DNA of 64,000 nucleotides. Source: Pelagibacteraceae bacterium AG-422-N09. Its GTDB lineage: Bacteria > Pseudomonadota > Alphaproteobacteria > Pelagibacterales > AG-422-B15. Both the position numbers and the translations under genes were made by a program. Numbering within the stretch: the stretch's first letter is position 1; every line of letters starts with the position of its first letter. Of the stretch, positions 1 to 33,076 are shown piece after piece. Location of the stretch: the NCBI GenBank assembly GCA_003213515.1, contig QCMV01000002.1, positions 57,740 to 121,739 on the forward strand. The letters run 5' to 3'. The notes beneath the pieces were generated by a model that ran no database searches, had not been told where the DNA came from, and saw nothing but the letters and a program-made list of their open reading frames with translations.

Positions 1-264
1 TTTTTTGTTGAGCAAAAATCTTTACGTTTAAAAATAATTAAAATTCTTCAAGACAAGAAATTTGGTACAAAGAACATTCCTGACGCTCTTAAATGGCACT
101 GTGCTTACTACTGGGATCATGCTTTAGATAAAAATGAGTATCTCAGGTCAAAAAAAACAATGGAAATTTTAAAACAAGCTATATCAATTCCTATTCTGCT
201 AAAGAAAAGCTTAAAAGATTATAAATTATTGATTAGAAATATTAATCGAGTGATAAGTTCTTGA
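1..264 (+). CDS. 3' end of an ORF that starts upstream of the window; function unknown
   Basis: Frame 1 is open from the window edge to TGA at 262-264 (...KWHCAYYWDHALDKNEY...NRVISS*). I recognise no motif. Confidence 0.4.
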   Translation, partial: FFVEQKSLRLKIIKILQDKKFGTKNIPDALKWHCAYYWDHALDKNEYLRSKKTMEILKQAISIPILLKKSLKDYKLLIRNINRVISS

Positions 265-268
265 AATT

Positions 269-1153
269 TTATCTGAATGGTTCCTTAGATGCAATTATAT
301 GAATATTATCCACATATTTTTGATAAAAGAATCCAAGTTGATGTAATTCTTCTTCAACAGATTTAAATGGGTTTTTAAATCCTTCTAAAATAAGAGCATC
401 TTCATGTATCTCTACTAAATATAGATTTACGTGGTTTGAAATTTTTTTTGCTCCTCTCAAAATTTTAATTTCTGCTCCTTCTGTATCTATTTTCACTAAA
501 TCAGGCTTATTTTTAATTATTTGATTTTTAATTAGACTGTCAAGACTCATTGATTCCACTTCTAAGCAAATCTGTTTACCTGTTGGAGATGGAGAACTTG
601 TTTCCTTAAAAATACTATGTGTGTCTTTGTCAGGTCTGATGTAAAATTTTACTTTTTCATTTTTGTCAGTAACAGCTAATTTTAATAACTTTACATTAGA
701 AATATTATTAATTTTACAATTATTCTTTATTGCAGTCTGGCCAATTTCATCAGGTTCAAATACATATACTTTTCCATTAGGTCCAACTTTTTTTGCAAGT
801 GGAATAGTATATTGCCCTGTATGTCCACCGATATCAAATATTGTCATTCCATCGTGAACATGAGTTTCAAGAAACTTGTTTAAAAATCTTTCTTCATTTT
901 GATTTCCAGTTGAAAGGTGCCAGAAATTTTTTGCTGAAACTGCTTCATAGACTAAAGATATATTGCCATATGATTTTTTAATTAATCTCTCTCCATTTTC
1001 GTATCTTAAATAACAATTTTCTCTTACTTTTTTTCTTCTGTATTTGTATATTTTGTAATCAACTCTGATTAATCTGTATATATATTTAATTACTTGGTAA
1101 GTTAGCGGATATGACTCCAATATTTTTTTTATATTATCTAATTTTTTTTTCAT
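269..1153 (-). CDS. FkbM-family SAM-dependent methyltransferase
   Basis: 294-aa ORF with FkbM-type blocks DIGGHTGQYT, VYVFEPD and VKIDTEGAE. Confidence 0.8.
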   Translation of the reverse strand: MKKKLDNIKKILESYPLTYQVIKYIYRLIRVDYKIYKYRRKKVRENCYLRYENGERLIKKSYGNISLVYEAVSAKNFWHLSTGNQNEERFLNKFLETHVHDGMTIFDIGGHTGQYTIPLAKKVGPNGKVYVFEPDEIGQTAIKNNCKINNISNVKLLKLAVTDKNEKVKFYIRPDKDTHSIFKETSSPSPTGKQICLEVESMSLDSLIKNQIIKNKPDLVKIDTEGAEIKILRGAKKISNHVNLYLVEIHEDALILEGFKNPFKSVEEELHQLGFFYQKYVDNIHIIASKEPFR

Positions 1154-1193
1154 GAGATTATTTATTAATAGATAATGAGAACAATATTTTAAA

Positions 1194-2972
1194 ATGAAGA
1201 ATAATATACTTACATTAACTGGTCTAGAGAAAATGGATTCAAAAAAAGATGATGTGTACTTATTAGGGAAATGGTGTTTAGGAGACCGTATCGATGATTT
1301 AGAAACGCATAATAATTATCAAATTCTAAACTATCATTGGGATGATAGGGAAAAATTAAAATTAGATTATTATTATTTAAAAAAGTTACATGATAGGTTG
1401 TTGGATAAACTTACATTATCTCTAAATAAATTGCATTTAGTAGAAAAAGACAAAAGATATTGGCAAATATTACTTGATCCTTGGCTCATGGATTATGTAG
1501 GAATTATATTTGATAGATGGGAAACGATAAGAATTGCAAGTCAATTGGACAGTAAATTTAAAATTAATTATTTAGAAAATTTACCTCATTTTGATGCATC
1601 ATTTTCCTATGTTCATCAAGCAAAGTTAATAAGGACTAGAACTTGGAACCAGGTAATTTATCAAAGAATAATTAATTTTAGTTTTAAGAATAGTTTTGAT
1701 TTTGAAAAAATTACTATAAATAAGGAAGAAAAATTTAAAGAAAATTTTTCAGACAGTGAATATAATAGAAAGGTAATATTAGGTATAATAAAAATATTTA
1801 TAAGGATCTATGAATATTGTTGTTCTAAATTTATACGTAATTATAAAGTTGTGTTTTTAGATGCTTACTTTAGACCGTTTTCATTTATTCTTTTAAATCT
1901 TAAGTTATTTCAACTTCCTAGAATATTCTATTTTGAGTTTTTAAATCCAAAATTAAATAATAAGAAATTACCAAACAGAAAAAAATTAATAATAGATTTA
2001 GACTATTCAAATAAATTTGAGGAATTTCTGAATCATTTTTTACCTACAGATTTACCTACCTCTGTGGTCGAATACTACAAAGATTTTTCTGAACATATAA
2101 AGAAGATTAAAATACAAACAAAGATGATTTTATCTGCGAACGCTTATTGGTATAGTGTCCCTAAAAAATATTGGATTGCAGAACAGTCTTCTAAAGGTGT
2201 AAGTTTTGTTTCAGTTTCACATGGTGGTTCTTTTCCAGCTTACGAGGAACATTTCGATTTTGAAGAAGATATAAGTGACAAAAGATGTACATGGTTCAAA
2301 CCTCTGCATGATAAGCATGTTCAATTACCACCAAATAAATTAATTAATTTAAAGAATTATTACAAACTTCTTAATATAAGAAACTCACGTAAATTACTTT
2401 CAATAATAGGTTTTGAAGGAAGTGGAAAGTGGGCTCATAGATCAACTTTTCGTCCAGTATCGCATCAGGCCTTATTAACCTTTGATTTTAGTGTTAAATT
2501 AGTCAAATTATTAGATAAAGAAATTCAAAACAAAACAAAGATTAGACCACAGAGTAATTTAGGATGGAATACAAAAGAAATGTACGAAAACTATCTAGGA
2601 AAAAAAATGATTTCCCAGGAAAAGAATTATTATAAATTTATTTCTCATTCTAAGATTATTTTATGCTTGTATCCTGAAACGACTTTTTCTGAATCCATGG
2701 CCTCAGGTATTCCAACTATCCTTGCTTATCCAGAAAATTACAATGAGAGAAATCATAAAGCTTTAGGACTAATAGATACAATGAAGAAAGCTAAAATTAT
2801 TTTCAATAATTTTGATTTGGCAGCTGATCATATAAACAATATTTGGCAAAACCCATATGATTGGTGGAATAGTGAAGAAACTTGTAGGGCAAGAGAAGAG
2901 TTCTTTCAAACTGCTGGAAATCCGAATGATAGTCAATGGTTAAGAAAATGGTTGAAGTTTCTTAAGATTTAA
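1194..2972 (+). CDS. Uncharacterised putative transferase, LIC12162-like family as I recall it from TIGRFAM; paralogue of the N-terminal ~600 aa of 5524..8277
   Basis: 592-aa ORF. It shares long identical strings with the downstream paralogue (ILNYHWDDR, ILLDPWLMDYV, FDRWETI, HGGSFP, FEEDISDKR, YPETTF). It lies in a glycan locus next to a WbuX-type amidotransferase. Confidence 0.5.
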   Translation: MKNNILTLTGLEKMDSKKDDVYLLGKWCLGDRIDDLETHNNYQILNYHWDDREKLKLDYYYLKKLHDRLLDKLTLSLNKLHLVEKDKRYWQILLDPWLMDYVGIIFDRWETIRIASQLDSKFKINYLENLPHFDASFSYVHQAKLIRTRTWNQVIYQRIINFSFKNSFDFEKITINKEEKFKENFSDSEYNRKVILGIIKIFIRIYEYCCSKFIRNYKVVFLDAYFRPFSFILLNLKLFQLPRIFYFEFLNPKLNNKKLPNRKKLIIDLDYSNKFEEFLNHFLPTDLPTSVVEYYKDFSEHIKKIKIQTKMILSANAYWYSVPKKYWIAEQSSKGVSFVSVSHGGSFPAYEEHFDFEEDISDKRCTWFKPLHDKHVQLPPNKLINLKNYYKLLNIRNSRKLLSIIGFEGSGKWAHRSTFRPVSHQALLTFDFSVKLVKLLDKEIQNKTKIRPQSNLGWNTKEMYENYLGKKMISQEKNYYKFISHSKIILCLYPETTFSESMASGIPTILAYPENYNERNHKALGLIDTMKKAKIIFNNFDLAADHINNIWQNPYDWWNSEETCRAREEFFQTAGNPNDSQWLRKWLKFLKI

Positions 2973-3010
2973 TATTAATAAGATTTAAGAATAAACTGCT
3001 TCATAATTAA

Positions 3011-4198
3011 ATGAAAAATATAACTTACTGTACGCGTTGCACTATCCCTAGTACCCAAGAGGGAGTAACTTTTGATGAAATGGGAATTTGTACAGCTTGT
3101 ATTTCTTCTGAAGAAAAAATGCACATAGATTGGAATAAAAGAGAAAAGGATCTTTTAGAAATATTAAAAAATGCAAAATCAAATTCGGGAAATGGCTATG
3201 ATTGTGTATTGCCGATATCTGGTGGAAAAGATAGTTTTTTTCAAGCACATGTTCTTACTCAAGTATATGATGTTAAGCCTTTAGCAGTAACATTTAGCCA
3301 TAATTGGTTTTCGGAAACAGGTTTTTATAATCTACAGAGATGTTTGGAAGTCTTTAACTTAGATCATATACAGTTTACACCCGCAAGAAACTTAGTAAAT
3401 AAGCTTGCAAGAAAATCAATAAATGTAATAGGAGATTCTTGTTGGCATTGTCATGCAGGTGTTGGAGCATTTCCACTTCAAATTGCTACAAAATTTAAGA
3501 TTCCTTTATTAGTTTGGGGAGAATCAATAGCCGAAAATGATGGAAGAGAAGGATATGGTTGTCCCAAAATTAAGTTTGATAGAGATTATTTTACTAAAGT
3601 TTCTGCTAAGCTTACAGCTGAGGAGATGGTTGATGATAATTTATCTTCAAAAGATTTACATCCGTTTAGTCTTCCCTCTTATAAAGAAATAGACGATGCG
3701 GGTGTGCATGGTATTCATCTTGGAGATTATATTTTTTGGGACGATGAGAGGCAGACAGAATGGATAAGAGATACCTATGGTTGGAAAGAAACAGAAATGG
3801 AAGGAACATACAAAGGCTATAAAAGCGCAGAATGTATTATGTCTGGTATGCATGATTTTACTTGTTATTTAAAGAGAGGCTACGGCAGAGCTACTGTTCA
3901 AACAGCCGTAGATGTTAGAAATGGACTTCTTACTAGAAAAGAAGGTTTTGAATTAATTAAAAAGCACGATCAGGAAATTCCTGAAGCTTTAGACTATTAC
4001 CTAGAAATTACAGGCCTTAATGACAATGAGTTTTATAGGATAATGAACTCAAAAAAACTAAAAGAATTGCACGAAGTAAATATCCCTGTAAGAAAGAAAG
4101 AGCAACAAAACCTTGAGAAAATAAAGCCTTTTGTCGAACAAATAATTGAAAAGCATTTAAAAAGAGAAGATCCTAGGGTTTTGCGAGATAAAAAATAA
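3011..4198 (+). CDS. N-acetyl sugar amidotransferase (WbuX/WbpG/PseA-like PP-loop ATP pyrophosphatase)
   Basis: It has an N-terminal Cys cluster (CTRCTIP...GICTAC) and the PP-loop motif PISGGKDS. The length of 395 aa is typical of the family. Confidence 0.8.
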   Translation: MKNITYCTRCTIPSTQEGVTFDEMGICTACISSEEKMHIDWNKREKDLLEILKNAKSNSGNGYDCVLPISGGKDSFFQAHVLTQVYDVKPLAVTFSHNWFSETGFYNLQRCLEVFNLDHIQFTPARNLVNKLARKSINVIGDSCWHCHAGVGAFPLQIATKFKIPLLVWGESIAENDGREGYGCPKIKFDRDYFTKVSAKLTAEEMVDDNLSSKDLHPFSLPSYKEIDDAGVHGIHLGDYIFWDDERQTEWIRDTYGWKETEMEGTYKGYKSAECIMSGMHDFTCYLKRGYGRATVQTAVDVRNGLLTRKEGFELIKKHDQEIPEALDYYLEITGLNDNEFYRIMNSKKLKELHEVNIPVRKKEQQNLEKIKPFVEQIIEKHLKREDPRVLRDKK

Positions 4199-5524
4199 AT
4201 GATGGGTTATTTATTTCTAGAAAACTCAATCAGCGAATTATTAAATAAAATTAAAAATAAAGAATTTGCTCTTTCTGACATGATAAGTCACTCAGAAGAA
4301 GTATATCTTAGACATGAGAATGAAACAAATGCATGGAAAGAATTTGATACAGGCAGATTAAATAAATATCTTGATGATAATAATTTAAGAAATTTATCTG
4401 GAATACCTTTTGGAATAAAAGATATTTTTAATACATCTGATTTTTTTACTCAGATGGGATCAGAAATATGGAAAAACTTTTCTCCAGGAAACAATGCAAG
4501 AGTAGTTGATATGCTTATCGGCGCAGGTGCTTTTCCAATAGGAAAAACAGTAACGGCCGAATTTGCTGTTCACAAGTTAAATGAAACTCTAAATCCGCAT
4601 GATGCCTTGAGGACACCAGGTACATCTTCTAGTGGATCAGCAGCTGCTGTATCAAGAGGAGTTGTTCCATTTGCTCTTGGCACTCAAACTGCTGGATCTA
4701 TAATAAGACCTGCAAGTTTTTGTGGAGTATGGGGTATGAAGCCCTCTTTTGGAATGATTCCTAGAACAGGAATTCTTAAAACTACAGATTCATTAGATAC
4801 TGTTGGATTTTTAACAACGCATGGAAAGAATATGCGACTAATTCTTGATTCTATTAGAGTAAAAGGGCCTAACTATCCATATGTTTATAAAAATGTTGAT
4901 CTAGCTAGCAAAAGAAATAACAAGCATTGGAAAGTAGGTTTCCTAAAAACAAATCTATTTAGTAAGTCTGAACAATATGTTCAAAAAAGTATTGGCAATT
5001 TTATTAACAAACTTTCAACTATTAATACATTTGAGGTAGATGAAGTTTTGTGGCCTAGTTCAATGAATGATTTACATAGTATACATTCAACAATTTACTA
5101 TAAGTCATTAGGATATTATTTTCAAAGAGAAGAAAAACAATCCCAAAAAATTTCTGATTCAATGAAACAAATAATAAATTTATCAAAAGAAATATCCTTA
5201 GACGATTTTCAAAAAGCATTGGATAGACAAGAAAAATTTATTTATTCATTAGATGAATTGATCAAAAAATATGATTTTTTGATAACTAATAGCACAGCGA
5301 GCTCAGCGCCGCTAAGAAACGAGACTGAAATAGACGATACTTCATTGCTTTGGACAATGGGACATGTCCCTTCGATATCTGCTCCGGTATTTAAGTGTCC
5401 AAAGGGGCTTCCCTTTGGAATTCAGTTTATATCAAGAAAATGGAATGACTTTAATTTAATTAATGCCATTGAAGAGCTTATTGACATTGAGATATTACCT
5501 AAGTCTTCTGTTAAGGTACAGTGA
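4199..5524 (+). CDS. Amidase-signature (GatA-like) family amidase
   Basis: Catalytic elements are present: GIPFGIKDIF (Lys), GTSSSGSAAAV (Gly/Ser-rich signature with cis-Ser) and GTQTAGSIIRPASFCG (Ser nucleophile). The ATG directly follows the upstream TAA at 4196-4198. Confidence 0.85.
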   Translation: MMGYLFLENSISELLNKIKNKEFALSDMISHSEEVYLRHENETNAWKEFDTGRLNKYLDDNNLRNLSGIPFGIKDIFNTSDFFTQMGSEIWKNFSPGNNARVVDMLIGAGAFPIGKTVTAEFAVHKLNETLNPHDALRTPGTSSSGSAAAVSRGVVPFALGTQTAGSIIRPASFCGVWGMKPSFGMIPRTGILKTTDSLDTVGFLTTHGKNMRLILDSIRVKGPNYPYVYKNVDLASKRNNKHWKVGFLKTNLFSKSEQYVQKSIGNFINKLSTINTFEVDEVLWPSSMNDLHSIHSTIYYKSLGYYFQREEKQSQKISDSMKQIINLSKEISLDDFQKALDRQEKFIYSLDELIKKYDFLITNSTASSAPLRNETEIDDTSLLWTMGHVPSISAPVFKCPKGLPFGIQFISRKWNDFNLINAIEELIDIEILPKSSVKVQ

Positions 5525-8277
5525 TGACTAAAAGAAATTTATTAATACTTACTTCCATTAAAGAAACTAGAAATCAATCACATGATGATTGTATTTTACT
5601 AGGTGAGTGGTGCAAGGATTTAAATGAGGAAGATAAAAATTTTAATATAGAACATATTCTAAATTATCATTGGGATGATAGAGTCAAATTAAAGAGAGAT
5701 TATAAATATTTAAAAAACTTTCATTATCAATTATTAAGTGAACTAACTACAAAACTAAATTCGTTACATGGTGTCAATTATGATATTAGATATTGGAGAA
5801 TTTTATTAGATCCTTGGTTAATGGATTATGTATCAGTTTTATTTGATAGATGGGAGACTATTGATGCTGCATGTAAATTAGACAAAAAATTTGATGTTAA
5901 TTTCTTACAAAGTAATTTCTTAGATAAGTCTTTACCTTTAGGAATGAATCAGATGCATGCACACTTTAGTAAAGATTATTTCAATCAATTATTATATCAA
6001 AAAATAATTGAATATAATTATAGCGACTCATTCAATATAAAAATAGTAGATACCAAAAGAGATTTACAAAAGGATTTGTATGAGCCGTTTGTAGAAAAAG
6101 AAAGCTCATATTTTTTCAATCTTTTTAGAGGATTGTATAATCATATTGATAAGATGCTCGGAAACATTTTTAACAAATATGATGTAGTTTTTATTGACTC
6201 ATACTTTAGGTATTTTGACCTGATAAAAATAAATCTAGCTATGAATCAGTTTCCAAGATTATTTAATATGGATTTTGATTCAAAATCCAAAGAAATTAAA
6301 AGCCTTTATGAAAATCAAGATAATGAGGCTCGTAATCAAATTAAAATTTCCTTAAATAATAGTTCTAAGTTTGAAAATTTTATACTTGAGCAAATTATTA
6401 AGAATTTGCCAAAATCAATTGTAGAAAATTATTCATCTTTAAAGAATATATCCCAGCAGATAAATATTAATACCAAAGTGATAATGTCTGCAAACAGTCA
6501 TTGGGATAATCTTTTAAAAAAATTCTGGATTGCGCATAAGGTATCTCAAGGAGTAAAATTTGTTACATTAGAACATGGTGGCTCATTCCCTCCACTAAAA
6601 GAACATTTTCAATTTGAGGAAGATATAAGCGATAAAAGAGGAACCTGGTTTATTCCTTGGCATGAAAAGCACATTCAATTACCGCCTACAAAATTAGTTC
6701 ACAGAAATAAATTGATTAATAAAAGAAAAGGTTCTTCTAATCGCTATAAAAGGTGTTCTTTAATTGCTTACGGAGGAAGAAGATGGGCTTTTCGGGTTAA
6801 TTTTTATCCTCATTCATATCAGGGGCTAAAACCTTTGGAAGATAGTGTGGTATTTTACAATAATTTAGACACTAAAATAAAAGATAATTTTCAAATTAAG
6901 TTACACCATGACCTTGGATTAAATGAAATTGATAGATTTAGAAGAAAATTAGATCCTTCAAAAATATCTACCGAAAAAAATTATGATAAATTTTTAAGTA
7001 ATTCAAAAGTAATTGTTTGTACTTATCCTGAGACTACATTTGCTGAAGCAATGTCAACTAATATTCCAACAATTATGTTTTTTGATAAAAATATTTTTGA
7101 GCGAAATCCAATAACAGATAACTTACTTAACAAGCTTGTTGAAGCAAAGATAATTTTCTTCGATGCAAAAACAGCAGCTAAACATTTAAATAAAATATGG
7201 GATAATTTAGATGTCTGGTGGAATAGTGACATTGTATTGAATGCAAGAATTGAATTTAGGAAACAGGCTTCCCCAATAGACAAATATTGGATTAGTAAAT
7301 GGAAGACATTCATAAATGATAATTTTTTAAGAAATTCTCATCATAAAATGCAAGCTTATGGGAATAATTTTACTGGCTATCTAAGAGCGGGAATTTATAC
7401 AACTAGATTATTTGTTCAGAACCCTGTTGAAAGTTTGAATGAAATCATTTCTGATGTCAGAAAAGATCAAAATTCTAAACTTTTTGAGTCAAAATATAAT
7501 CTTGTTTGGTGTGCGGGTTTACCACATTCAGGAACTACTCTAGTAGAAGAAATATTTGATAGTTTGCCATATATTAGATTAAATTCATCTCCACTTAGAT
7601 TTTTTAATTCAGGTAATCTGACTCACCCTCATAGTGTTTCAAGAGAAATGTTTTTAAGCGCACCAATAAACAAATATTCATTTTTTAAAACCCATAGTCA
7701 TTATGATCCAAGTTTTCTAGAATATGCAAAACAGAGCAATGCAAGAATAATAGTTTGTCTTAGAGATATTAGAGATATGATGATTAGCAGATATTGGCAT
7801 ATTATGTCTAATAAATACCACTGGTTACATCTTAAGATCAAAGATCTTCCAATGAGAGAGGGTTTTATTGAGTCTTTGATTTCTGTTAATGAGGAAAATT
7901 ATTATTCCCCTAGACCAATTGAAGATTATTTCTTGTGGATAAAGAATTGGATAGAAGTTGAAAAAAAAGAAGATATTAAAATTATATGGTATGAAGATTA
8001 TGTTAAAAATTCAATTCAGTATATTTATAATATTTTAGATTACTTAGAATTTAGTGAAATTAATGCGAAACATATAGAAGAAAAACTTGAGTCAAAAAGG
8101 GTTAGAAATAAGTCATTTCCATTATCAAAGAGACTTTTTTTGCCAGGAAGAATGAAATCAACATATAGGTCAGGTAAATCCGGGGAGTGGCGTGAATTAT
8201 TTGATGATAATATTTCTGAGGTCTTTAATTCATATATTCCTGGAGAAATTTCAGAAATTATAGATAATAATAGATAA
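5524..8277 (+). CDS. Fusion protein: LIC12162-like putative transferase (N-terminal ~600 aa) plus a C-terminal PAPS-type sulfotransferase domain
   Basis: The N-terminus is collinear with 1194..2972 to that protein's very end (QWLRKWLKFLKI versus YWISKWKTFIND). The extra ~300 aa carry sulfotransferase motifs: GLPHSGTT (5'-PSB), FKTHSH, LRDIRDMMISRY (3'-PB) and RSGKSGEWRELF. The track start GTG 5521 and ATG 5524 are both possible; ATG 5524 overlaps the upstream TGA. Confidence 0.7.
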   Translation: MTKRNLLILTSIKETRNQSHDDCILLGEWCKDLNEEDKNFNIEHILNYHWDDRVKLKRDYKYLKNFHYQLLSELTTKLNSLHGVNYDIRYWRILLDPWLMDYVSVLFDRWETIDAACKLDKKFDVNFLQSNFLDKSLPLGMNQMHAHFSKDYFNQLLYQKIIEYNYSDSFNIKIVDTKRDLQKDLYEPFVEKESSYFFNLFRGLYNHIDKMLGNIFNKYDVVFIDSYFRYFDLIKINLAMNQFPRLFNMDFDSKSKEIKSLYENQDNEARNQIKISLNNSSKFENFILEQIIKNLPKSIVENYSSLKNISQQININTKVIMSANSHWDNLLKKFWIAHKVSQGVKFVTLEHGGSFPPLKEHFQFEEDISDKRGTWFIPWHEKHIQLPPTKLVHRNKLINKRKGSSNRYKRCSLIAYGGRRWAFRVNFYPHSYQGLKPLEDSVVFYNNLDTKIKDNFQIKLHHDLGLNEIDRFRRKLDPSKISTEKNYDKFLSNSKVIVCTYPETTFAEAMSTNIPTIMFFDKNIFERNPITDNLLNKLVEAKIIFFDAKTAAKHLNKIWDNLDVWWNSDIVLNARIEFRKQASPIDKYWISKWKTFINDNFLRNSHHKMQAYGNNFTGYLRAGIYTTRLFVQNPVESLNEIISDVRKDQNSKLFESKYNLVWCAGLPHSGTTLVEEIFDSLPYIRLNSSPLRFFNSGNLTHPHSVSREMFLSAPINKYSFFKTHSHYDPSFLEYAKQSNARIIVCLRDIRDMMISRYWHIMSNKYHWLHLKIKDLPMREGFIESLISVNEENYYSPRPIEDYFLWIKNWIEVEKKEDIKIIWYEDYVKNSIQYIYNILDYLEFSEINAKHIEEKLESKRVRNKSFPLSKRLFLPGRMKSTYRSGKSGEWRELFDDNISEVFNSYIPGEISEIIDNNR

Positions 8278-8395: not shown

Positions 8396-9154
8396 ATGAA
8401 TTTAAGAAAAAAAAATTTTTATTTTAAAAATATTACGATTGGTTCATGGATTACACTTTATAACCCAGGAATTGCAGAAATATTTTCACAAAATAAATTT
8501 GATTGGATAGTTGTAGATTTAGAGCATAGCGCGATTTCAATAGATCAGGCATCTGATTTAATCAGAATAATTGATTTATGTGGATGCAGACCTTTAGTTA
8601 GACTTACCTCTAATAGTAAGGATTTAACAAAGAGAGTTTTAGATGCAGGAGCTCACGGAATTATTGTTCCTATGATAAATTCAAAAGATGAGGCAAAGAA
8701 AGCTGTAAGCTATTCACACTATATGCCGAAAGGCGTAAGAGGTGTTGGACTAGCGAGAGCTCAAGGTTATGGAAGTAAATTTGATGAATATGTTCGATGG
8801 CAAGAAAATGAGCCACTTATTATTGCTCAAATTGAACACGTTAACGCAATAAATAATATTGAAGAAATTGTCTCGGTTAGTGGAATAGATGGCGTTTTTA
8901 TTGGTCCATATGACCTGTCTGGATCTATTGGAAGATCTGGAGATTTTACTTCAACGAAGTATAAAAACTCAATCAAAAAAGTAAAAGCAGTTGTTAAATC
9001 AAAAAATAAAATACTTGGCATTCATGTTGTTGAGCCTGATGTCTTCGAGGTAAATAAAGCAATAAGAGATGGATTCAGCTTTATCTCATTTAGTGTTGAT
9101 ATCAGAATTTTAGACTCTAATATAAAAAATGCTATTCAAAAAATAAGAAAATAA
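8396..9154 (+). CDS. HpcH/HpaI-family class II (pyruvate) aldolase
   Basis: Family pattern: GSWITLYNPGIAEI, DWIVVDLEHS, RPLVRL, LDAGAHGIIVPMINSKDEA, YMPKGVRGVG. Confidence 0.8.
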   Translation: MNLRKKNFYFKNITIGSWITLYNPGIAEIFSQNKFDWIVVDLEHSAISIDQASDLIRIIDLCGCRPLVRLTSNSKDLTKRVLDAGAHGIIVPMINSKDEAKKAVSYSHYMPKGVRGVGLARAQGYGSKFDEYVRWQENEPLIIAQIEHVNAINNIEEIVSVSGIDGVFIGPYDLSGSIGRSGDFTSTKYKNSIKKVKAVVKSKNKILGIHVVEPDVFEVNKAIRDGFSFISFSVDIRILDSNIKNAIQKIRK

Positions 9155-9169
9155 CAGTAAAAAAATTAA

Positions 9170-9946
9170 ATGAATACCATTGGCATCATTCCAGTAAGAA
9201 TGGACTCGACAAGATTTTATGGGAAACCTATGGCTAATATATGTGGGATTCCTATGGTAGGTCATTGTTTTTATCGATCTTGCTTAGCGTTAGGAAGTAA
9301 TAAAGTTTTTGTCGCTACATGTGACAAAATAATTGCAGATTATATTAGTAGTATCGGCGGACAAGTAGTTCTTACATCAAAAAAACATAAAAGGGCGACA
9401 ACGAGGACTGCTGAAGCAAAAAGGAAAATCGAGAAGAAATATAAAGATAAGATAGAAGCAATAGTTATGATTCAAGGAGATGAACCAACTATAAATAATA
9501 AATCTATTTCTGAGGTTGCAAAAGAATTAAAAAAATCAAAAAAAAATATTATCAATCTAGTTTCAATCATTAATTCTAAGAAAAATTTAAGAGATCAAAA
9601 TAATGTAAAAGTGATTCTTAATAAGAATAGACAAGCTATCTATTATTCTCGGTATCCTATACCTTTTTTGATAGATAAATCAAAAAAAACAGATTTTTAC
9701 ATGCAAACAGGTATCATTGGATTCAAGTCAAGTAAGCTTGATAAGTTTAATAACCTAGATGAAACAATATTAGAAAAGTTGGAATCAGTCGATATGAATA
9801 GATTAATAGAAAACAATGAATCTATAGATACAATATGTACCAACTATCCAACTATTAGTGTAGATACAAGAAAAGAACTCAAGGCTGCTGAAAAATTAAT
9901 AATAAAGGATCGTTTGATTAATAAATATAAAAAATTAATAAGATAA
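9170..9946 (+). CDS. KdsB/NeuA-type cytidylyltransferase (CMP-ulosonic acid synthetase family)
   Basis: The N-terminus IGIIPVRMDSTRFYGKPMANICGIPMVGH and the QGDEP motif are as in 3-deoxy-manno-octulosonate cytidylyltransferases. Confidence 0.75.
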   Translation: MNTIGIIPVRMDSTRFYGKPMANICGIPMVGHCFYRSCLALGSNKVFVATCDKIIADYISSIGGQVVLTSKKHKRATTRTAEAKRKIEKKYKDKIEAIVMIQGDEPTINNKSISEVAKELKKSKKNIINLVSIINSKKNLRDQNNVKVILNKNRQAIYYSRYPIPFLIDKSKKTDFYMQTGIIGFKSSKLDKFNNLDETILEKLESVDMNRLIENNESIDTICTNYPTISVDTRKELKAAEKLIIKDRLINKYKKLIR

Positions 9947-10920
9947 TGATGAATAAGATAAAAAAAATATTGCTAAATTTAATTGATAGTTCACGTAAAA
10001 AAAAAATTAATAAAAGCATACAAAATATACTTTCATCTCAAAAAATTGGATTTATTGATATTGGAGCAGCTGGCAACATACATCCAAGATGGGAGAAGAT
10101 AAGTAAACATATTAATTATTATGGGTTTGAACCAGATCTTAGATCGTATAATCTTTTAGTTAATAAAAAGAACGAATGTCATGAATATAAGATATTTAAT
10201 ACGGCAATATGGGAAAGTGACTCAGAGATTCAAATAAATTTATGCAAGAAGCCATGGGTCTCATCTTTTTATACTCCAAACTATAATTTTTTAGATAATT
10301 TTCCTGAAAATGATAGATACACTGTCATTGAAAAAGAAAATATGAAAACGTCTTCATTGGACAATGTTAATTTCAGTGAAAAAGACTTTATAAAAATTGA
10401 TATTCAAGGTGGGGAACTAAAAGTTCTTAAAGGAGCTTCTAAAACACTCCATCATTGCCTAGGACTTGAAATTGAAGTTGAGTTTCTTGAACTATATGAA
10501 TCCCAGCCACTATTTGGTGAATTATGTTTATTTCTAAAGAATGAAGGATTTGAATTTATAGATTTTATCTCTTTGAATAGGTGGGAGAGAGATAAATATG
10601 ACGGATATGGACAAAGCACTTTTGGCGATGCACTTTTTATGAGAACACCTGAACACATGCAAAAGTTTTTTTCAAAAGATTCAAATAAAATAAAAAAATA
10701 TATAGCTACATGTGTTTTATATAATCGCTATGATTATATTGAGACAATTACTAATTCAAAAATTTTCTCTGCAAACTTTTCATTTGAAGAAATTAAAAAG
10801 ATAAAAAAATCAGCAGACAAAATGAAAACAAACCATATTAAAGTAAGATCAGTTAATAAATTTTTTAATAAAATTTTAAGAATTATGGATGACAATAACA
10901 GTTTGCATCTTTTTTACTAA
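9946..10920 (+). CDS. FkbM-family methyltransferase
   Basis: Motifs IDIGAAGN, YGFEPD and IKIDIQGGELKVLKGA. The TAATG start overlaps the upstream stop. Confidence 0.75.
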   Translation: MMNKIKKILLNLIDSSRKKKINKSIQNILSSQKIGFIDIGAAGNIHPRWEKISKHINYYGFEPDLRSYNLLVNKKNECHEYKIFNTAIWESDSEIQINLCKKPWVSSFYTPNYNFLDNFPENDRYTVIEKENMKTSSLDNVNFSEKDFIKIDIQGGELKVLKGASKTLHHCLGLEIEVEFLELYESQPLFGELCLFLKNEGFEFIDFISLNRWERDKYDGYGQSTFGDALFMRTPEHMQKFFSKDSNKIKKYIATCVLYNRYDYIETITNSKIFSANFSFEEIKKIKKSADKMKTNHIKVRSVNKFFNKILRIMDDNNSLHLFY

Positions 10921-11984
10921 TGGGAAAAAAAATTAAAATTGCAATAGCCGGTTATGGAGTAGTTGGAAAACTAAGACATAAATCAATTAATAAAAATAAA
11001 GATTTTGATTTAATCGCAGTATGTGACAGAAAATTCAAAAAAAATGGAGTCTTTAGCAATGGTATTCAATATTATAGATATTATAAGGAACTGCTCGAAT
11101 TAGACATTGATGCTATAATAATTTGTTTAACTAATGATGTTGCTGCTCAAGCTACCCTTGATTCACTAAAAAAAAATAAGCATGTTTTTTGTGAGAAGCC
11201 TCCAGGCGTTCGATTAAGAGATATATTTACCATATATAAATATTTAAAGAAAAATAAAAAACTAAAGCTAATGTATGGATTTAATCATCGTTATCACCAG
11301 TCAATTCAAGATGCTATTGATATAGTTAACTCTGAAAAGTATGGAAAGATAATTAACATGAGAGCAGTTTATGGTAAGTCAAATATAATTACTTTCAATC
11401 AATCCGATTGGAGAACAAAAAGGAAAATAGCTGGAGGTGGTATTCTATTAGATCAAGGTATTCATATTCTTGACTTATTAAGATTATTTGCTGGAGATTT
11501 TAATCAAATAAAAAGTTTTGTTTCTAATAATTATTGGAAATTCGATGTAGAAGATAATGTATACGCAGTAATGAAAACAAGATCAGGAATTCATGCTTCA
11601 ATAAACTCCTCAGCTACTCAATGGCCACATAAGTTTTCTCTTGAAATCAATCTTGAAAAGGGATCGGTGGTTTTATCAGGAATTTTATCTAATTCAAAAA
11701 GTTATGGTAAAGAAACAATAAAGTTATTAAAAAAGAAAAAAAATGATAATAAATTTAAGCAAAATATAAAAATAAAAAAATACACAAAAGATATATCATG
11801 GGACAAAGAACTAGAATCCTTTTCAGACATTATTAAAAACAAGAAATCATCAAAAAAAGGTAGCATTAGTGAAGCATTTCTTACTATGAAATTAGTTTTC
11901 TTAATATATTACAGCGACAAAGAATGGAGGAAAAAATACAATATTGAGAATCCTAATAAATTTACTATCGATGAAGAAAAATAA
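10920..11984 (+). CDS. Gfo/Idh/MocA-family NAD(P)-dependent oxidoreductase
   Basis: The N-terminal Rossmann segment KIAIAGYGVVGKLR and the CEKPPG (EKP) motif are typical of the family. Confidence 0.8.
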   Translation: MGKKIKIAIAGYGVVGKLRHKSINKNKDFDLIAVCDRKFKKNGVFSNGIQYYRYYKELLELDIDAIIICLTNDVAAQATLDSLKKNKHVFCEKPPGVRLRDIFTIYKYLKKNKKLKLMYGFNHRYHQSIQDAIDIVNSEKYGKIINMRAVYGKSNIITFNQSDWRTKRKIAGGGILLDQGIHILDLLRLFAGDFNQIKSFVSNNYWKFDVEDNVYAVMKTRSGIHASINSSATQWPHKFSLEINLEKGSVVLSGILSNSKSYGKETIKLLKKKKNDNKFKQNIKIKKYTKDISWDKELESFSDIIKNKKSSKKGSISEAFLTMKLVFLIYYSDKEWRKKYNIENPNKFTIDEEK

Positions 11985-12705
11985 TTTACTTGAAATTGCA
12001 AAAAAAGCATCTTTAGCTGCTTTAGAATCTTTGGAATTAAACAAAGATAAAGAACTTAAATCTAGTTATGATGTAGATTTAATAAGGGAGATGAAAAGTG
12101 AAATAGATATTATTAATAATAATAAAATACTTAATGTATTAAAAAAAACAGGTATACCAATTTTGTCTGAAGAAAATATAAAAGAAATAGACCATAGTGA
12201 ATATTGTTGGATTGTAGATCCATTAGACGGCACAGTAAATTATATAAGAAATATAGCTAGTTGTGGCATATCAATAGCCCTCTTTAAAAATAGTAAACCT
12301 ATTTTCGGCGTAATTGCTGAGTATCCAGATAAAAATCTATATTGGGGAGGTAAAGAATTTGGAGCTTTCAGAAATGGAGTTCCAATCAAAGTTTCAAAAA
12401 TATCGAACAAAAAGGAGGCTATTCTGTGCACAGGATTTCCCGCAAGATATGATTTTGATGAATTAGATGATACACAATTATTTAGAGAATATGCAAAAAT
12501 AAGAATGCTTGGATCGGCTTCAATTAGTTTGGTAAATCTTGCCAAGGGAAGTGTAGATTGTTACTTAGAAAAAAACATAATGATATGGGATATAGCGGCG
12601 GGAATAGCGTTACTTGAGGGTGCCGGTGGAGAATATAAAATTCAGAATTTAAAATTCCTATCTCCATTAAATCTTATTGCACATAATGGGATTTTAAATA
12701 TATGA
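11971..12705 (+). CDS. Inositol-monophosphatase-family phosphatase (island copy)
   Basis: Motifs WIVDPLDGTVNY and MIWDIAAG. The track ORF starts at TTG 11944. ATG 11971 (MKKNNLLEIAKKAS) is the more conservative start and overlaps the upstream gene by 14 nt. Confidence 0.8.
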   Translation: MKKNNLLEIAKKASLAALESLELNKDKELKSSYDVDLIREMKSEIDIINNNKILNVLKKTGIPILSEENIKEIDHSEYCWIVDPLDGTVNYIRNIASCGISIALFKNSKPIFGVIAEYPDKNLYWGGKEFGAFRNGVPIKVSKISNKKEAILCTGFPARYDFDELDDTQLFREYAKIRMLGSASISLVNLAKGSVDCYLEKNIMIWDIAAGIALLEGAGGEYKIQNLKFLSPLNLIAHNGILNI

Positions 12706-13628
12706 AAAATAATAAAAAAGATTTTATTGCTGTATGTTCCCGGTCCTTTTCAGCAAATCCATTATTAAGAAAAAAAATTTTATCCAAATATAAAAATGTA
12801 AAGTTTAATGACAGGGGTATTAAACTAGAGGGAAGTAGTCTTCATAGCTTTGTTAAAGGAGCTTCTAAAATAATTGTAGGACTAGAAAAAATTGATAAAC
12901 AATTGTTGGCTTCACTCCCAGAATTAAAACTTATTTCAAAATATGGAGTTGGAATTGATAATATAGATACCCATGCAATGAAAAAATATAATAAGAAGCT
13001 TGTTAACTATGAGGGTGTAAATAAAAGATCAATTTCAGAACTTATTTTATTGTTAATATTGAATAGTATGAGGAAAATCAAATTGATTAATAGTGATATA
13101 ACTCTCGGAAAGTGGAAACAAAGAGTTGGATCGGAATTAAGTGGTAAGACTGTCGGAATTATTGGATTTGGAAATATTGGCCAAGATTTAAGTGTTATTT
13201 TAAGGCCTTTTGAATGTAAAATTATTTTTTATGATATTAGTATTAATCATGTAAAAAAAAATATTTTAAGAAAAGTAAAAAGAGTTAGTCTAAACAAACT
13301 TCTTACATCAGCAGATATCATAACATTAAACTTGCCATACAATAGGTATACGAAGAATATTATTGATAAAAATAATATCAAATTGATGAAGTCAAATTCG
13401 ATTTTAATCAATACTGCAAGAGGAGGACTGGTTGATGAGAAAGCATTATTCAGAGCTTTAAAACAAAAAAAAATTGCGGCAGCAGCTTTTGATGTATTTG
13501 AGAAAGAGCCTCCTCAAAATTCTAATCTGTTGAAATTAGATAACTTTTTTGCTACTTCTCATATCGGAAGTATTACCAATGAAGCAATTATTAGGATGGG
13601 AATGGCTGCTATAAAAGGCTTACAGTAA
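12702..13628 (+). CDS. D-isomer-specific 2-hydroxyacid dehydrogenase (phosphoglycerate dehydrogenase-like)
   Basis: Motifs GKTVGIIGFGNIGQ (NAD binding), NTARGGLVDEKAL, FDVFEKEP and SHIG. There is an ATGA overlap with the upstream gene. Confidence 0.85.
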   Translation: MKNNKKDFIAVCSRSFSANPLLRKKILSKYKNVKFNDRGIKLEGSSLHSFVKGASKIIVGLEKIDKQLLASLPELKLISKYGVGIDNIDTHAMKKYNKKLVNYEGVNKRSISELILLLILNSMRKIKLINSDITLGKWKQRVGSELSGKTVGIIGFGNIGQDLSVILRPFECKIIFYDISINHVKKNILRKVKRVSLNKLLTSADIITLNLPYNRYTKNIIDKNNIKLMKSNSILINTARGGLVDEKALFRALKQKKIAAAAFDVFEKEPPQNSNLLKLDNFFATSHIGSITNEAIIRMGMAAIKGLQ

Positions 13629-13644
13629 CCTTAAGAATATCAAA

Positions 13645-20799: not shown

Positions 20800-20805
20800 A
20801 AATTT

Positions 20806-32257: not shown

Positions 32258-33076
32258 TTAACCCATCTTCGATTTATTCTTGGATGGGTTCTTTTTATTC
32301 AAAATTGATCTGCATTTATTAAAAATCTCATTATTTGCGCAAGCAATTATTCTTCCACCTTTAGATATATTTTTATTATCCCAAGTTTTTAATATTCCTC
32401 CCGCGTTCATAATTATTGGTTCTAAAGCTCTTATATCCCATGCGTTTAGTCCACTTTCCACGACTATATCTACAAGTCCGTCTGCGAGCAAACAATAACT
32501 GTAGCAATCTCCACCAAGTCGAGTTAATTTGACCTTTTTACTTAGTCTCTCAAATGATGATTGATCATTTTTATTTGCAAATAAATATGGCGAAGTTGTA
32601 TTTAATATTGAATCGGAAATTACTTTATTGTTACTAACCTTCAAATTGGATTTTTTTCCATTTATAATCTTATATGATTTTTTTTCATATCCAATGTATC
32701 TCTCATCTAACGCAGGAATATCTGCAACACCCAAAATAATATTACCATTTTCTGATAGCGAAATTAATGTACCCCAAAGCGGCATACCTTGTATAAACGA
32801 CTTTGTTCCATCAATTGGATCAATACACCATTCATAAGCACTATTTTTAGGATGAGTTTCTTCCTCTCCGATAATTGAGTGATTTGGAAAATATTTTAGA
32901 ATTAAATGATTTAATTTTTTTTGAATTTTGATGTCTGCTACTGTTACCGGATCAAAACCAGATCTTTCTTTATTTTTAGCTTTAATTTTTGTTTTAAAAT
33001 ATTTAAGGGAAATTAGACGAGCTTCGTCTGCCAACATATTTGAGAAATTTAAAAATTTTTTTATACTTTTTTTCAT
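32258..33076 (-). CDS. Inositol-monophosphatase-family protein, possibly histidinol-phosphatase HisN
   Basis: Motifs CIDPIDGTKSF and AWDIRALEPII. The start is trimmed to ATG 33076 (MKKSIKKF). The longer track ORF runs into the divergent neighbour. Confidence 0.7.
   Translation of the reverse strand: MKKSIKKFLNFSNMLADEARLISLKYFKTKIKAKNKERSGFDPVTVADIKIQKKLNHLILKYFPNHSIIGEEETHPKNSAYEWCIDPIDGTKSFIQGMPLWGTLISLSENGNIILGVADIPALDERYIGYEKKSYKIINGKKSNLKVSNNKVISDSILNTTSPYLFANKNDQSSFERLSKKVKLTRLGGDCYSYCLLADGLVDIVVESGLNAWDIRALEPIIMNAGGILKTWDNKNISKGGRIIACANNEIFNKCRSILNKKNPSKNKSKMG

What the first reader, a model, noticed from the sequence alone, without database searches (positions are those of the whole stretch)
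3011..5524. WbuX-type PP-loop amidotransferase paired with an amidase-signature enzyme instead of a HisH/HisF-like ammonia-donor pair
Seen in sequence: the amidotransferase has SGGKDS and an N-terminal CxxC...CxxC cluster. It ends at TAA 4196-4198, and the amidase ATG follows at 4199. The amidase keeps all catalytic elements of the family: Lys in GIKD, SSSGS, and the GSIIRPA nucleophile. No HisH- or HisF-like ORF occurs anywhere in the window.

Established knowledge: acetamidino-sugar loci such as E. coli O145 wbuXYZ and P. aeruginosa wbpG with hisH2/hisF2 pair this amidotransferase with glutaminase/cyclase homologues. The amidase-signature family includes GatA, which hydrolyses glutamine and channels ammonia to a partner subunit.

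Inference: the amidase may be a GatA-like ammonia supplier for acetamidino or amide formation on an N-acetyl or uronic sugar. That would be an undescribed partner combination. Together with the fnlB/fnlC genes downstream it would fit an L-FucNAm-type sugar.
Basis: partly seen in the sequence, partly recalled or inferred. Interest (0 to 1): 0.65.

Follow-up and report, generated by a model that had tools for sequence, protein, structure and literature searches.

The report
Sugar amidotransferase with dedicated amidase partner
In this SAR11 genome, an enzyme that puts an amidine group on a surface sugar sits next to an amidase that most likely feeds it ammonia; the pair recurs in about 160 other loci, is fused into one protein in some, and was not found described in the papers searched.

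Summary
ORF 3011-4198 is a WbuX/NASAT-family PP-loop enzyme (TIGR03573, 327 bits, cutoff 203). ORF 4199-5524 is an amidase-signature enzyme with an intact Lys74/cis-Ser143/Ser167 triad. The TAA stop abuts the ATG, and no HisH or HisF lies in the window or 9.7 kb upstream.

The pairing is not chance:
- 79 of 80 further genome loci chosen by the amidase, plus Sulfuricella, carry the WbuX gene directly upstream.
- 75 of 75 metagenome loci chosen by WbuX, with room downstream, carry the amidase directly downstream.
- About 60 protein clusters are natural WbuX-amidase fusions.
- In all four genome-scan loci with HisH/HisF nearby, those genes abut a second, divergent WbuX paralog (31-37% identity).
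- AlphaFold2 gives pTM 0.85 for both the concatenated window pair and a natural fusion.

Best reading: the amidase, which is closer to malonamidase E2 than to GatA, supplies ammonia to this WbuX clade in place of HisH/HisF. This rests on comparative inference, not biochemistry.

The proposed L-FucNAm target is not supported. The conserved neighbours are nonulosonic-acid genes (NeuB, PseB, PseC/LegC-like, PseF, GNAT), so a legionaminic- or pseudaminic-type sugar is the likely substrate. I found no literature description. I rate it a new variant of a known kind.

The parts
3011..4198 (+). WbuX/NASAT-family PP-loop N-acetyl-sugar amidotransferase, amidase-linked clade ('clade A')
   Evidence: TIGR03573 scores 327 bits against a cutoff of 203. 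It matches L. pneumophila NASAT 8WEX at E=3e-41. It is 74% identical to the Sulfuricella orthologue and 53-82% identical to orthologues in about 160 loci.
3029..3100 (+). Predicted Zn-binding tetracysteine motif (C7, C10, C27, C30)
   Evidence: Read from the translation. C27 and C30 are invariant and C7 and C10 nearly invariant in fusions. The motif is defined in PMC10607449.
3218..3235 (+). PP-loop SGGKDS (residues 70-75), the ATP pyrophosphatase signature
   Evidence: Read from the translation. The six residues are invariant in 59 sequences.
4115..4153 (+). Clade-specific C-terminal motif E369-x3-P-F-x-E-Q-[LI]-I-E-K381. It lies beyond the end of the TIGR03573 match, just before the amidase. 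It is a candidate docking element.
   Evidence: E369, P373 and Q377 are conserved at 96-98% in 46 clade-A proteins. The region is absent or gapped in 8 HisH/HisF-linked or plasmid-borne divergent WbuX. The motif is retained ahead of the linker in natural fusions. Residues 374-381 form a helix in the AF2 model, and the linker 381-397 is disordered. The docking role is inference.
4196..4201 (+). TAA stop abutting the ATG start, consistent with translational coupling
   Evidence: Seen. In 150 related loci with separate genes the median stop-start distance is about -3.5 nt, and 90 of 150 lie within +/-10 nt.
4199..5524 (+). Amidase-signature enzyme of a malonamidase-E2-like subfamily; proposed ammonia-generating subunit
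   Evidence: PF01425 scores 212 bits. It falls below every NCBIfam equivalog cutoff, including GatA. Malonamidase E2 matches at E=2e-69 over the full length, against GatA at 1e-52 over the N-terminal half only. The predicted fold matches MAE2 at TM 0.85-0.88 and GatA at 0.76-0.79.
4418..4420 (+). Catalytic Lys74 (GIKD)
   Evidence: Invariant. It aligns with MAE2 Lys62.
4625..4627 (+). cis-Ser143 (first Ser of the SSSGS motif)
   Evidence: Invariant. It aligns with MAE2 Ser131.
4697..4708 (+). Nucleophile Ser167 and Arg170 (S-I-I-R). Arg170 aligns with MAE2 Arg158, which I recall to be the residue that binds the malonamate carboxylate.
   Evidence: Both are invariant. An R158Q mutant structure of MAE2 is listed. 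The role of Arg158 rests on my own knowledge of the MAE2 literature.
1194..2972 (+). LIC12162-family transferase (context; possible nonulosonic-acid transferase)
   Evidence: TIGR04331 scores 312 bits against a cutoff of 225. A homologue follows the amidase directly in the nearest relatives L002-L004, L007, L008, L011 and L081. The family is noted beside neuABC genes in PMC6679464.
5521..8277 (+). Second LIC12162-family transferase fused to a C-terminal sulfotransferase domain (context)
   Evidence: TIGR04331 scores 332 bits. PF00685 matches residues 662-906.

Best explanation
ORFs 3011-4198 and 4199-5524 most likely encode the two subunits of one amidotransferase.

Proposed mechanism:
1. The amidase-signature subunit hydrolyses a small amide donor through its Lys74/cis-Ser143/Ser167 triad. 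The donor is glutamine, or possibly asparagine or a malonamate-like carboxy-amide.
2. The released ammonia passes to the PP-loop WbuX subunit.
3. WbuX uses ATP to activate the carbonyl of an N-acyl group on a sugar, probably an N-acetyl group, and converts it to an amidine (acetamidino).

In this WbuX clade the amidase takes the place that HisH/HisF-like proteins (WbuY/WbuZ) hold for other WbuX enzymes. The likely substrate is a legionaminic- or pseudaminic-type nonulosonic acid, or its nucleotide-linked precursor, made by the surrounding cluster in this SAR11 surface-glycan island.

Shown by computation: family membership, intact catalytic motifs, near-obligate adjacency, natural fusions, partner exclusivity and the nonulosonic-acid context. 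Inferred: ammonia transfer, the identity of the donor, and the identity and position of the acceptor group.
For: - Adjacency seen from the amidase side: of 80 further genome loci found with the amidase, 78 have a WbuX homologue (53-76% identical) directly upstream. One (L064) has it directly downstream and one (L030) has no contig left upstream. The Sulfuricella locus L001 shows the same arrangement. The loci span Proteobacteria, Bacteroidota, Spirochaetia, Cyanobacteria including Prochlorococcus, CPR phyla and a Methanoregula archaeon.
- Adjacency seen from the WbuX side: 75 of 75 metagenome loci with room downstream have the amidase directly downstream. None has HisH or HisF within 6 kb.
- Natural fusions: about 60 clusters (at 90% identity) of roughly 850-920-aa WbuX-linker-amidase proteins exist. 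One is from the cultured Solidesulfovibrio alcoholivorans DSM 5433. About 10 further clusters are triple-domain versions. Four of the 161 related loci are fused.
- Partner exclusivity: in all four genome-scan loci with HisH/HisF within 10 kb, and also in L090, those genes abut a second WbuX-type gene. In the four loci that paralog is 31-37% identical. Five of eight plasmid-borne divergent WbuX genes sit beside hisH/hisF and none beside an amidase. The plasmid collection holds no clade-A WbuX and no close relative of this amidase.
- Coupling: the stop codon abuts the start codon here, and the median spacing elsewhere is about -3.5 nt.
- Predicted structure: AlphaFold2 gives pTM 0.85 and pLDDT 87-88 for the concatenated window pair and for the natural fusion P0356. 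Only the linker is disordered. A pTM this high for two domains of about 400 aa each implies a defined mutual arrangement (my inference).
- Catalytic residues of both partners are invariant.
- The closest solved relative of the amidase is an ammonia-releasing hydrolase of a small carboxy-amide (MAE2). The Arg at +3 from the nucleophile is shared with it.
- GNAT-WbuX fusions and a GNAT usually lying just upstream fit a sequence of N-acetylation followed by amidination.
- Context: NeuB, PseB, PseC/LegC-like, PseF and GNAT genes surround the pair elsewhere and part of that set lies just upstream of this window.
Against: - No biochemical or genetic data exist for any member of this pair.
- The nearest characterised relative of the amidase, MAE2, is a stand-alone hydrolase, not a channelling subunit. 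The amidase fails the GatA model.
- The amide donor cannot be read from the sequence.
- I obtained only summary confidence values from the structure predictions, with no coordinates or PAE. No interface or tunnel was seen.
- This system coexists with a WbuX-HisH-HisF system in some nonulosonic-acid loci. The two therefore do different jobs, and the clade-A reaction need not be acetamidino formation.
- The nonulosonic-acid synthase (NeuB) itself was not found in the window or in the 9.7 kb upstream. In this genome the sugar assignment rests on partial context and on related loci.
- Some divergent WbuX genes have no dedicated partner at all.
Confidence: 0.65

Rival explanations
1. The two proteins form a complex, but the amidase is a tailoring hydrolase or transacylase acting on the sugar or glycan itself. 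Possible reactions are removal or exchange of an N-acyl group, or hydrolysis of an amidine or amide intermediate. WbuX would then take free ammonia or another nitrogen nucleophile.
For: Amidase-signature enzymes have very diverse substrates, and some are transacylases; ClbL appears among the hits. The amidase is not a GatA orthologue. Some WbuX-family genes have no dedicated ammonia supplier nearby. One fusion (P0184) carries an amidase-like domain with the catalytic Lys and Ser replaced, which hints at a structural role.
Against: HisH/HisF and the amidase partition cleanly between two WbuX clades, as expected for interchangeable ammonia suppliers. The closest structural relative hydrolyses a small carboxy-amide, and the Arg that aligns with its Arg158 is invariant here. 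The catalytic triad is invariant in 78 of the sequences examined. Fusion in the order synthetase then amidase parallels other PP-loop amidotransferases (own knowledge: NadE, GuaA).
Confidence: 0.15
2. The pair is an amidotransferase with the amidase as ammonia donor, but the chemistry or acceptor differs from N-acetyl to acetamidino on a nonulosonic acid. Possible alternatives are amidation of a carboxylate, a formamidino group from an N-formyl group, or action on another sugar such as L-FucNAc.
For: Clade A is only 31-37% identical to HisH/HisF-linked WbuX and has many clade-specific invariant residues. It coexists with a WbuX-HisH-HisF set in the same loci, which implies a non-redundant reaction. 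Formyltransferases lie nearby in L001, L084 and L090, and one formyltransferase-WbuX fusion exists. FnlB-like and FnlC-like genes lie 14 kb downstream in this window.
Against: The protein scores well above the TIGR03573 cutoff, with the PP-loop and Zn motif intact. GNAT genes and GNAT fusions are the commonest neighbours. Fnl homologues are absent near the pair in other loci and there is no FnlA in the window. To my knowledge, uronamide formation in known O-antigen loci uses AsnB-type enzymes.
Confidence: 0.15
3. The adjacency is incidental operon packing, and the two enzymes work independently.
For: None beyond the fact that glycan islands pack many unrelated genes together.
Against: Adjacency holds in 75 of 75 and 80 of 81 loci across many phyla and one archaeon. 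Genes overlap or abut. About 60 fusion clusters exist. The predicted two-domain architecture is confident.
Confidence: 0.03

Closest known systems
WbuX/WbuY/WbuZ (E. coli O145), WbpG with HisH2/HisF2 (P. aeruginosa), PseA (C. jejuni), MMP1081-1083 (M. maripaludis): acetamidino-sugar amidotransferase systems
   Same: The synthetase belongs to the same family (TIGR03573), with the PP-loop SGGxDS and the Zn tetracysteine motif. It sits in surface-glycan loci, often nonulosonic-acid loci. A dedicated ammonia-supplying partner is encoded next to it.
   Different: The partner here is a single amidase-signature protein instead of a class-I glutaminase (HisH-like) plus a HisF-like barrel. The synthetase forms a separate clade, 31-37% identical to the HisH/HisF-linked paralogs found in the same loci. 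It carries a conserved extra C-terminal motif. The M. maripaludis and C. jejuni examples are from my own knowledge and were not retrieved here.
GatCAB/GatFAB tRNA-dependent amidotransferase (GatA subunit)
   Same: An amidase-signature enzyme with a Ser-cisSer-Lys triad acts as the ammonia-generating subunit of an ATP-dependent amidotransferase. GatA is the second-best structural match, at TM 0.76-0.79.
   Different: The window amidase is not a GatA orthologue: 193 bits against a cutoff of 481, and only the N-terminal half aligns. The acceptor enzyme is a PP-loop sugar amidotransferase, not GatB. No GatB or GatC family was matched among the window ORFs scanned. The protein is shorter, at MAE2 size.
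Malonamidase E2 (Bradyrhizobium japonicum; PDB 1OBL, 1O9O and others)
   Same: It is the closest solved relative in sequence (E=2e-69, full length) and in predicted fold (TM 0.85-0.88, about 29% identity). It shares the GS[IV][IV]RPA spacing, which places an Arg at +3 from the nucleophile.
   Different: By my own knowledge MAE2 is a stand-alone hydrolase of malonamate with no synthetase partner. The window family is always paired or fused with WbuX. MAE2 Gln277 aligns with an invariant Tyr300 here.
Glutamine-dependent NAD+ synthetase (NadE) and GMP synthetase (GuaA)
   Same: These show the same modular logic: a PP-loop ATP pyrophosphatase that activates a carbonyl or carboxyl oxygen and receives ammonia from an attached or fused amide hydrolase. 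Different families use different hydrolase folds (own knowledge). FtNadE was among the structural neighbours of NASAT in PMC10607449.
   Different: The hydrolase modules differ: nitrilase-type in NadE and class-I GATase in GuaA, against amidase-signature here. The acceptor substrates also differ.

Membership tests
NASAT / WbuX family (TIGR03573) | Score above the curated family cutoff | tested here: met
   327 bits against a cutoff of 203.2, over model positions 2-344 of 344.
NASAT / WbuX family (TIGR03573) | PP-loop SGGxDS | tested here: met
   S70-G-G-K-D-S75, invariant in homologues. The motif is defined in PMC10607449.
NASAT / WbuX family (TIGR03573) | Tetracysteine motif CxxC-Xn-[GN]xCxxC | tested here: met
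   C7xxC10 ... G25-I-C27xxC30.
NASAT / WbuX family (TIGR03573) | Catalyses N-acetyl to acetamidino conversion on a sugar | not testable with these tools
   This needs an enzyme assay or glycan analysis.
WbuXYZ-type three-gene system | Adjacent HisH-like (WbuY) and HisF-like (WbuZ) genes | tested here: not met
   No HisH or HisF lies in the window or 9.7 kb upstream. There were none in 80 metagenome loci of this clade. Where present in genome loci, they abut a different WbuX paralog.
Amidase-signature family (PF01425) | Score above the gathering cutoff | tested here: met
   211.9 bits against a cutoff of 27, over residues 55-420.
Amidase-signature family (PF01425) | Ser-cisSer-Lys catalytic triad | tested here: met
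   K74, S143 and S167 align with MAE2 K62, S131 and S155 and are invariant.
GatA (TIGR00132 equivalog) | Score above the equivalog cutoff over the full length | tested here: not met
   192.8 bits against a cutoff of 481.1. The best stretch covers only residues 16-296.
GatA (TIGR00132 equivalog) | Works with GatB and GatC | tested here: not met
   The constant neighbour is WbuX, not GatB or GatC. No GatB or GatC family was matched among the window ORFs scanned.
Malonamidase E2-like amidases | Closest overall sequence and fold, and Arg at +3 from the nucleophile | tested here: met
   E=2e-69 over the full length. TM is 0.85-0.88. GSIIRPA here compares with GSVIRPA in MAE2.
Malonamidase E2-like amidases | Malonamate as substrate | not testable with these tools
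   Identity is about 29%, and MAE2 Gln277 is replaced by Tyr300. Substrate specificity cannot be inferred.
Two-subunit amidotransferase with ammonia channelling | Physical association of the hydrolase and synthetase modules | tested here: inconclusive
   Natural fusions exist. AF2 pTM is 0.85 for two constructs. No coordinates or PAE were available and there is no experiment.
Two-subunit amidotransferase with ammonia channelling | Intramolecular tunnel and coupled glutaminase activity | not testable with these tools
   This needs model coordinates or a structure, plus kinetics.

The most novel reading that the evidence does not exclude
This would be a previously unrecognised class of sugar amidotransferase. 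A malonamidase-E2-like amidase-signature protein, separate or fused, replaces HisH/HisF as the dedicated ammonia source of a distinct WbuX clade. That would make it the second known system after GatCAB/GatFAB to use an amidase-signature enzyme as a channelling ammonia donor. It would install amidino groups on nonulosonic acids at the cell surface of SAR11, Prochlorococcus, CPR bacteria and some archaea. It might use a donor other than glutamine.
Probability: 0.6. Interest if true: 0.72.

Novelty: new variant of a known kind. Interest (0 to 1): 0.62.

Why it matters
The only structural paper on N-acetyl-sugar amidotransferases states that little is known about them, and it does not address the ammonia source. 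A conserved, often fused amidase partner would add a new hydrolase module to the PP-loop amidotransferases. It would also be a second case, after GatCAB, of an amidase-signature enzyme serving as an ammonia donor.

The natural single-chain fusions offer a convenient system for reconstituting acetamidino formation in vitro. One comes from the cultured Solidesulfovibrio alcoholivorans.

The module marks nonulosonic-acid clusters in very abundant or poorly understood organisms: SAR11, Prochlorococcus, CPR phyla and a methanogen. It therefore predicts positively charged amidino sugars on their surfaces, which bears on phage and grazer recognition. It also shows that the current generic database names ('amidase', 'GatA family amidase') hide a specific function.

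Tried and rejected
A plain-letter concatenation was accepted instead.
- I tested whether the conserved 300-320-aa unknown neighbour ('unk318', and the 302-aa protein in L084) is the stand-alone form of the degenerate WbuX-like domain seen in triple fusions. There is no detectable similarity, so I rejected the idea. It has no significant Pfam or NCBIfam match.
- I tried to read further upstream than 9.7 kb. Its exact database copy, P0442, was 'not on record'. NeuB was therefore not located in this genome.
- The exact-sequence look-up of the window WbuX found nothing.
- GatA orthology was rejected.
- The L-FucNAm context was rejected.
- Phage and plasmid collections hold no clade-A WbuX and no close relative of this amidase.
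- Literature searches for the combination found nothing relevant.
- I did not map GatA's glutamine-binding residues onto this family. Only the N-terminal half aligns with GatA, and no residue-level structural alignment was available.
Full report
**1. What is in the sequence**

ORFs 3011-4198 (395 aa) and 4199-5524 (441 aa) lie on the + strand in the same frame. The TAA stop at 4196-4198 is followed at once by ATG.

The first protein matches the N-acetyl sugar amidotransferase model TIGR03573 (WbuX) at 327 bits, against a cutoff of 203. It carries the PP-loop S70GGKDS75 and the tetracysteine C7xxC10...C27xxC30. These are the two motifs that define the NASAT family in the only structural paper on it (PMC10607449). 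Its one solved relative is that L. pneumophila enzyme, 8WEX (E=3e-41).

The second protein is an amidase-signature enzyme (PF01425, 212 bits). It has Lys74, cis-Ser143 and nucleophile Ser167. These align with Lys62, Ser131 and Ser155 of malonamidase E2.

No HisH or HisF homologue is in the 64-kb window. tblastn with the T. maritima proteins found none here but did find them in other loci. NCBIfam scans of candidate ORFs found none.

**2. Host and setting**

EF-P and TolQ encoded in the window are identical to proteins of Pelagibacterales MAGs, and G+C is 25-37%. This is therefore a SAR11 surface-glycan island.

The pair is flanked by two LIC12162-family transferases. The downstream one is fused to a sulfotransferase domain.

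A Logan contig (L084) is 100% identical to window 1-3913 and extends 9.7 kb further upstream. That stretch encodes:
- two PseC/LegC-like aminotransferases
- a PhyH-type dioxygenase
- a GFO/IDH/MocA oxidoreductase
- a CMP-sugar-type cytidylyltransferase
- a formyltransferase
- a DUF4910 protein
- a PseH-like GNAT

It encodes no HisH or HisF. I could not read further upstream.

**3. Is the pairing recurrent?**

Yes, to a striking degree.

- The amidase belongs to a tight subfamily, 41-58% identical to the window protein in the genome loci, named only 'amidase' or 'GatA family amidase' in databases.
- In Sulfuricella denitrificans skB26 it is preceded by a protein 74% identical to the window WbuX, and the two genes overlap by one base.
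- A scan of one genome per GTDB species with an alignment of this amidase subfamily returned 80 loci. In 78 of them a WbuX homologue (53-76% identical) lies directly upstream. One has it directly downstream, and one has no contig left on that side.
- The hosts include Proteobacteria, Bacteroidota, Spirochaetia, Verrucomicrobiota, Chlorobiaceae, Cyanobacteria (including a Prochlorococcus single-cell genome), several CPR phyla and a Methanoregula archaeon.
- In the reciprocal test, 80 metagenome loci were chosen by similarity to WbuX (63-100% identical). All 75 with room downstream carry the amidase directly downstream. The other five have fewer than 110 nt left.
- Where the genes are separate, the estimated stop-to-start distance has a median of about -3.5 nt.

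**4. Natural fusions**

An exhaustive HMMER search with the concatenated pair found proteins that match both halves in a single chain. The sequences show a WbuX domain, a linker of roughly 25 residues (as in P0182) and a complete amidase domain, so these are not simple stop-codon read-throughs.

A follow-up search found about 60 clusters at 90% identity, of roughly 850-920 aa. One is from the cultured Solidesulfovibrio alcoholivorans DSM 5433, and others lie on MAG contigs longer than 100 kb. About 10 further clusters are 1120-1180-aa proteins with the order WbuX, a second WbuX-like domain that has lost its PP-loop, then amidase. Four of the 161 related loci are fused.

GNAT-WbuX fusions and one formyltransferase-WbuX fusion also exist.

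**5. Partner exclusivity**

HisH and HisF lie within 10 kb of the pair in only four of the 81 genome loci. In each case they are contiguous with a second WbuX paralog that is only 31-37% identical to the window protein. L090 has the same layout: HisH, HisF and a 386-aa protein that I take to be a divergent WbuX, plus a fused WbuX-WbuX'-amidase.

On plasmids, 21 records carry WbuX-family genes and all are under 40% identical. Of the eight I inspected, five sit beside hisH/hisF and none beside an amidase. The plasmid collection also lacks any close relative of this amidase.

Two WbuX clades therefore each keep their own partner. Clade A also has many clade-specific invariant residues. It has a conserved C-terminal motif (E369-x3-PFxEQ[LI]IEK) that the other clade lacks.

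**6. Predicted structure**

AlphaFold2 was run on the concatenated window pair, with the natural fusions as the alignment. It gave mean pLDDT 86.9 and pTM 0.85, and only residues 381-397 (the junction) and 518-522 were disordered. The natural fusion P0356 gave pLDDT 87.9 and pTM 0.85.

For two domains of about 400 residues each, a pTM this high implies a confident mutual arrangement. That is my inference, because no PAE or coordinates were returned and no tunnel could be examined.

Foldseek places the amidase domain closest to malonamidase E2 (TM 0.85-0.88), then GatA (0.76-0.79). It places the WbuX domain on 8WEX.

**7. What the amidase is and is not**

It fails the GatA equivalog model (193 bits against 481), and only its N-terminal half aligns with GatA. 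Malonamidase E2 aligns over the full length (E=2e-69).

The family shares MAE2's GS[IV][IV]RPA spacing. This places an invariant Arg170 opposite MAE2 Arg158. By my recollection of the MAE2 literature, Arg158 binds the substrate carboxylate; an R158Q mutant structure is listed.

This fits a small carboxy-amide donor such as Gln, Asn or malonamate, rather than a bulky glycan amide. The donor cannot be named from the sequence.

**8. Which sugar?**

I clustered neighbouring ORFs across the 81 genome loci. The recurrent families were:

| Neighbour family | Loci (of 81) |
|---|---|
| GNAT | 47 |
| PseC-like aminotransferase | 46 |
| Unknown 318-aa protein | 38 |
| GFO oxidoreductase | 36 |
| PseB | 29 |
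| NeuB/PseI-like synthase | 28 |

PseF-type and other cytidylyltransferases also recur. The typical gene order is GFO, DegT, GNAT, (unknown), WbuX, amidase. The metagenome set agrees.

Homologues of FnlB and FnlC are essentially absent near the pair elsewhere, and the window has no FnlA. The likely acceptor is therefore a legionaminic- or pseudaminic-type nonulosonic acid or its precursor, not L-FucNAc.

In this genome the NeuB gene itself was not seen within reach, so the assignment rests on the partial upstream cassette and on related loci.

**9. Interpretation**

The best-supported model is a two-subunit amidotransferase, fused in some lineages. An MAE2-like amidase-signature hydrolase supplies ammonia to a distinct WbuX clade. 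WbuX then uses ATP to convert an N-acyl group on a nonulosonic acid, probably N-acetyl, to an amidine.

The functional unit is very likely real, at about 0.9. The ammonia-donor role I put at about 0.65. The acetamidino-nonulosonic-acid product is somewhat less certain.

The rivals are as follows:
- The amidase is a tailoring hydrolase or transacylase.
- The pair is an amidotransferase with a different acceptor chemistry. The coexistence of both WbuX systems in one locus shows that they are not redundant.
- The adjacency is incidental, which the data exclude.

**10. Novelty**

Full-text searches for the combination found nothing. The NASAT structure paper does not discuss partners. Databases label the fusions simply 'N-acetyl sugar amidotransferase'.

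Relative to WbuXYZ, WbpG-HisH2F2 and PseA systems, this is a new variant of a known kind, because the ammonia-generating module has been replaced. Relative to GatCAB, it would be a second use of an amidase-signature enzyme as an ammonia donor.

The 'GatA-like' label and the L-FucNAm target do not.

Noticed in passing
window 5521-8277 and 1194-2972; 11944-12705; L090 6293-7168 and 14103-15641: Two LIC12162-family transferase paralogs (42% identical) bracket the pair. The downstream one is fused to a sulfotransferase domain. A CysQ/IMPase-like gene lies nearby. In L090 a sulfotransferase and an APS-kinase gene sit beside the fused WbuX-amidase, and P0415 is an APS-kinase-WbuX fusion. Together these suggest sulfation of the same glycan.
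   Followed up: partly
window 8396-15462: An HpcH/HpaI-type aldolase and a KdsB-like cytidylyltransferase are followed by an FkbM methyltransferase, a GFO oxidoreductase, an IMPase-like phosphatase, a 2-hydroxyacid dehydrogenase and a TIGR04326 protein. The aldolase and cytidylyltransferase recur in several of the nearest relatives (both in L003, L081, L091, L092, L094, L114 and L117; the cytidylyltransferase alone in L007). This may be a second ulosonic-acid route that does not use NeuB.
   Followed up: partly
P0180, P0181, P0357, P0371, P0372, P0375, P0379, P0380; P0189, P0192 and about 30 similar proteins; L090 8001-11546: Triple-domain proteins have the order WbuX, a WbuX-like domain with the PP-loop lost, then amidase. 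Proteins of about 600 aa have the degenerate domain followed by a canonical WbuX. This may be a pseudo-enzyme partner, perhaps mimicking the NASAT homodimer seen in 8WEX.
   Followed up: partly
P0403, P0409, P0417, P0418, P0420, P0423; P0411: GNAT (PF13302)-WbuX fusion proteins exist, along with one formyltransferase-WbuX fusion. They suggest that the acyl group is installed and then amidinated by coupled enzymes.
   Followed up: no
P0184 (728 aa, Oscillospiraceae MAG): WbuX is fused to an amidase-like domain in which the catalytic Lys (GVKD becomes AVED) and the nucleophile Ser motif are replaced. This looks like an inactive amidase domain kept as a structural partner.
   Followed up: no
L078 13552-14505; L084 8674-9582 (upstream of the window); 38 of 81 genome loci: A conserved protein of 300-320 aa lies next to the pair or the GNAT gene. 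It has no significant Pfam or NCBIfam match and is not related to WbuX. Its function is unknown, and a PseG-like hydrolase role is only a guess.
   Followed up: partly
window 19681-21933 and 24728-26575: An FnlB-like reductase scores below its model cutoff (431 bits against 500), and a WecB/FnlC-like 2-epimerase is present, but no FnlA. A membrane-anchored PglF/WbpM-like dehydratase lies at 24728-26575. The 6-deoxy-hexosamine made here is unclear.
   Followed up: partly
window 32258-33211 (-) and 32928-34409 (+): The HisN-type histidinol-phosphatase ORF overlaps by about 280 nt a 493-aa TTG-start ORF on the opposite strand that has no family match. One of the two start calls is probably wrong.
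   Followed up: no
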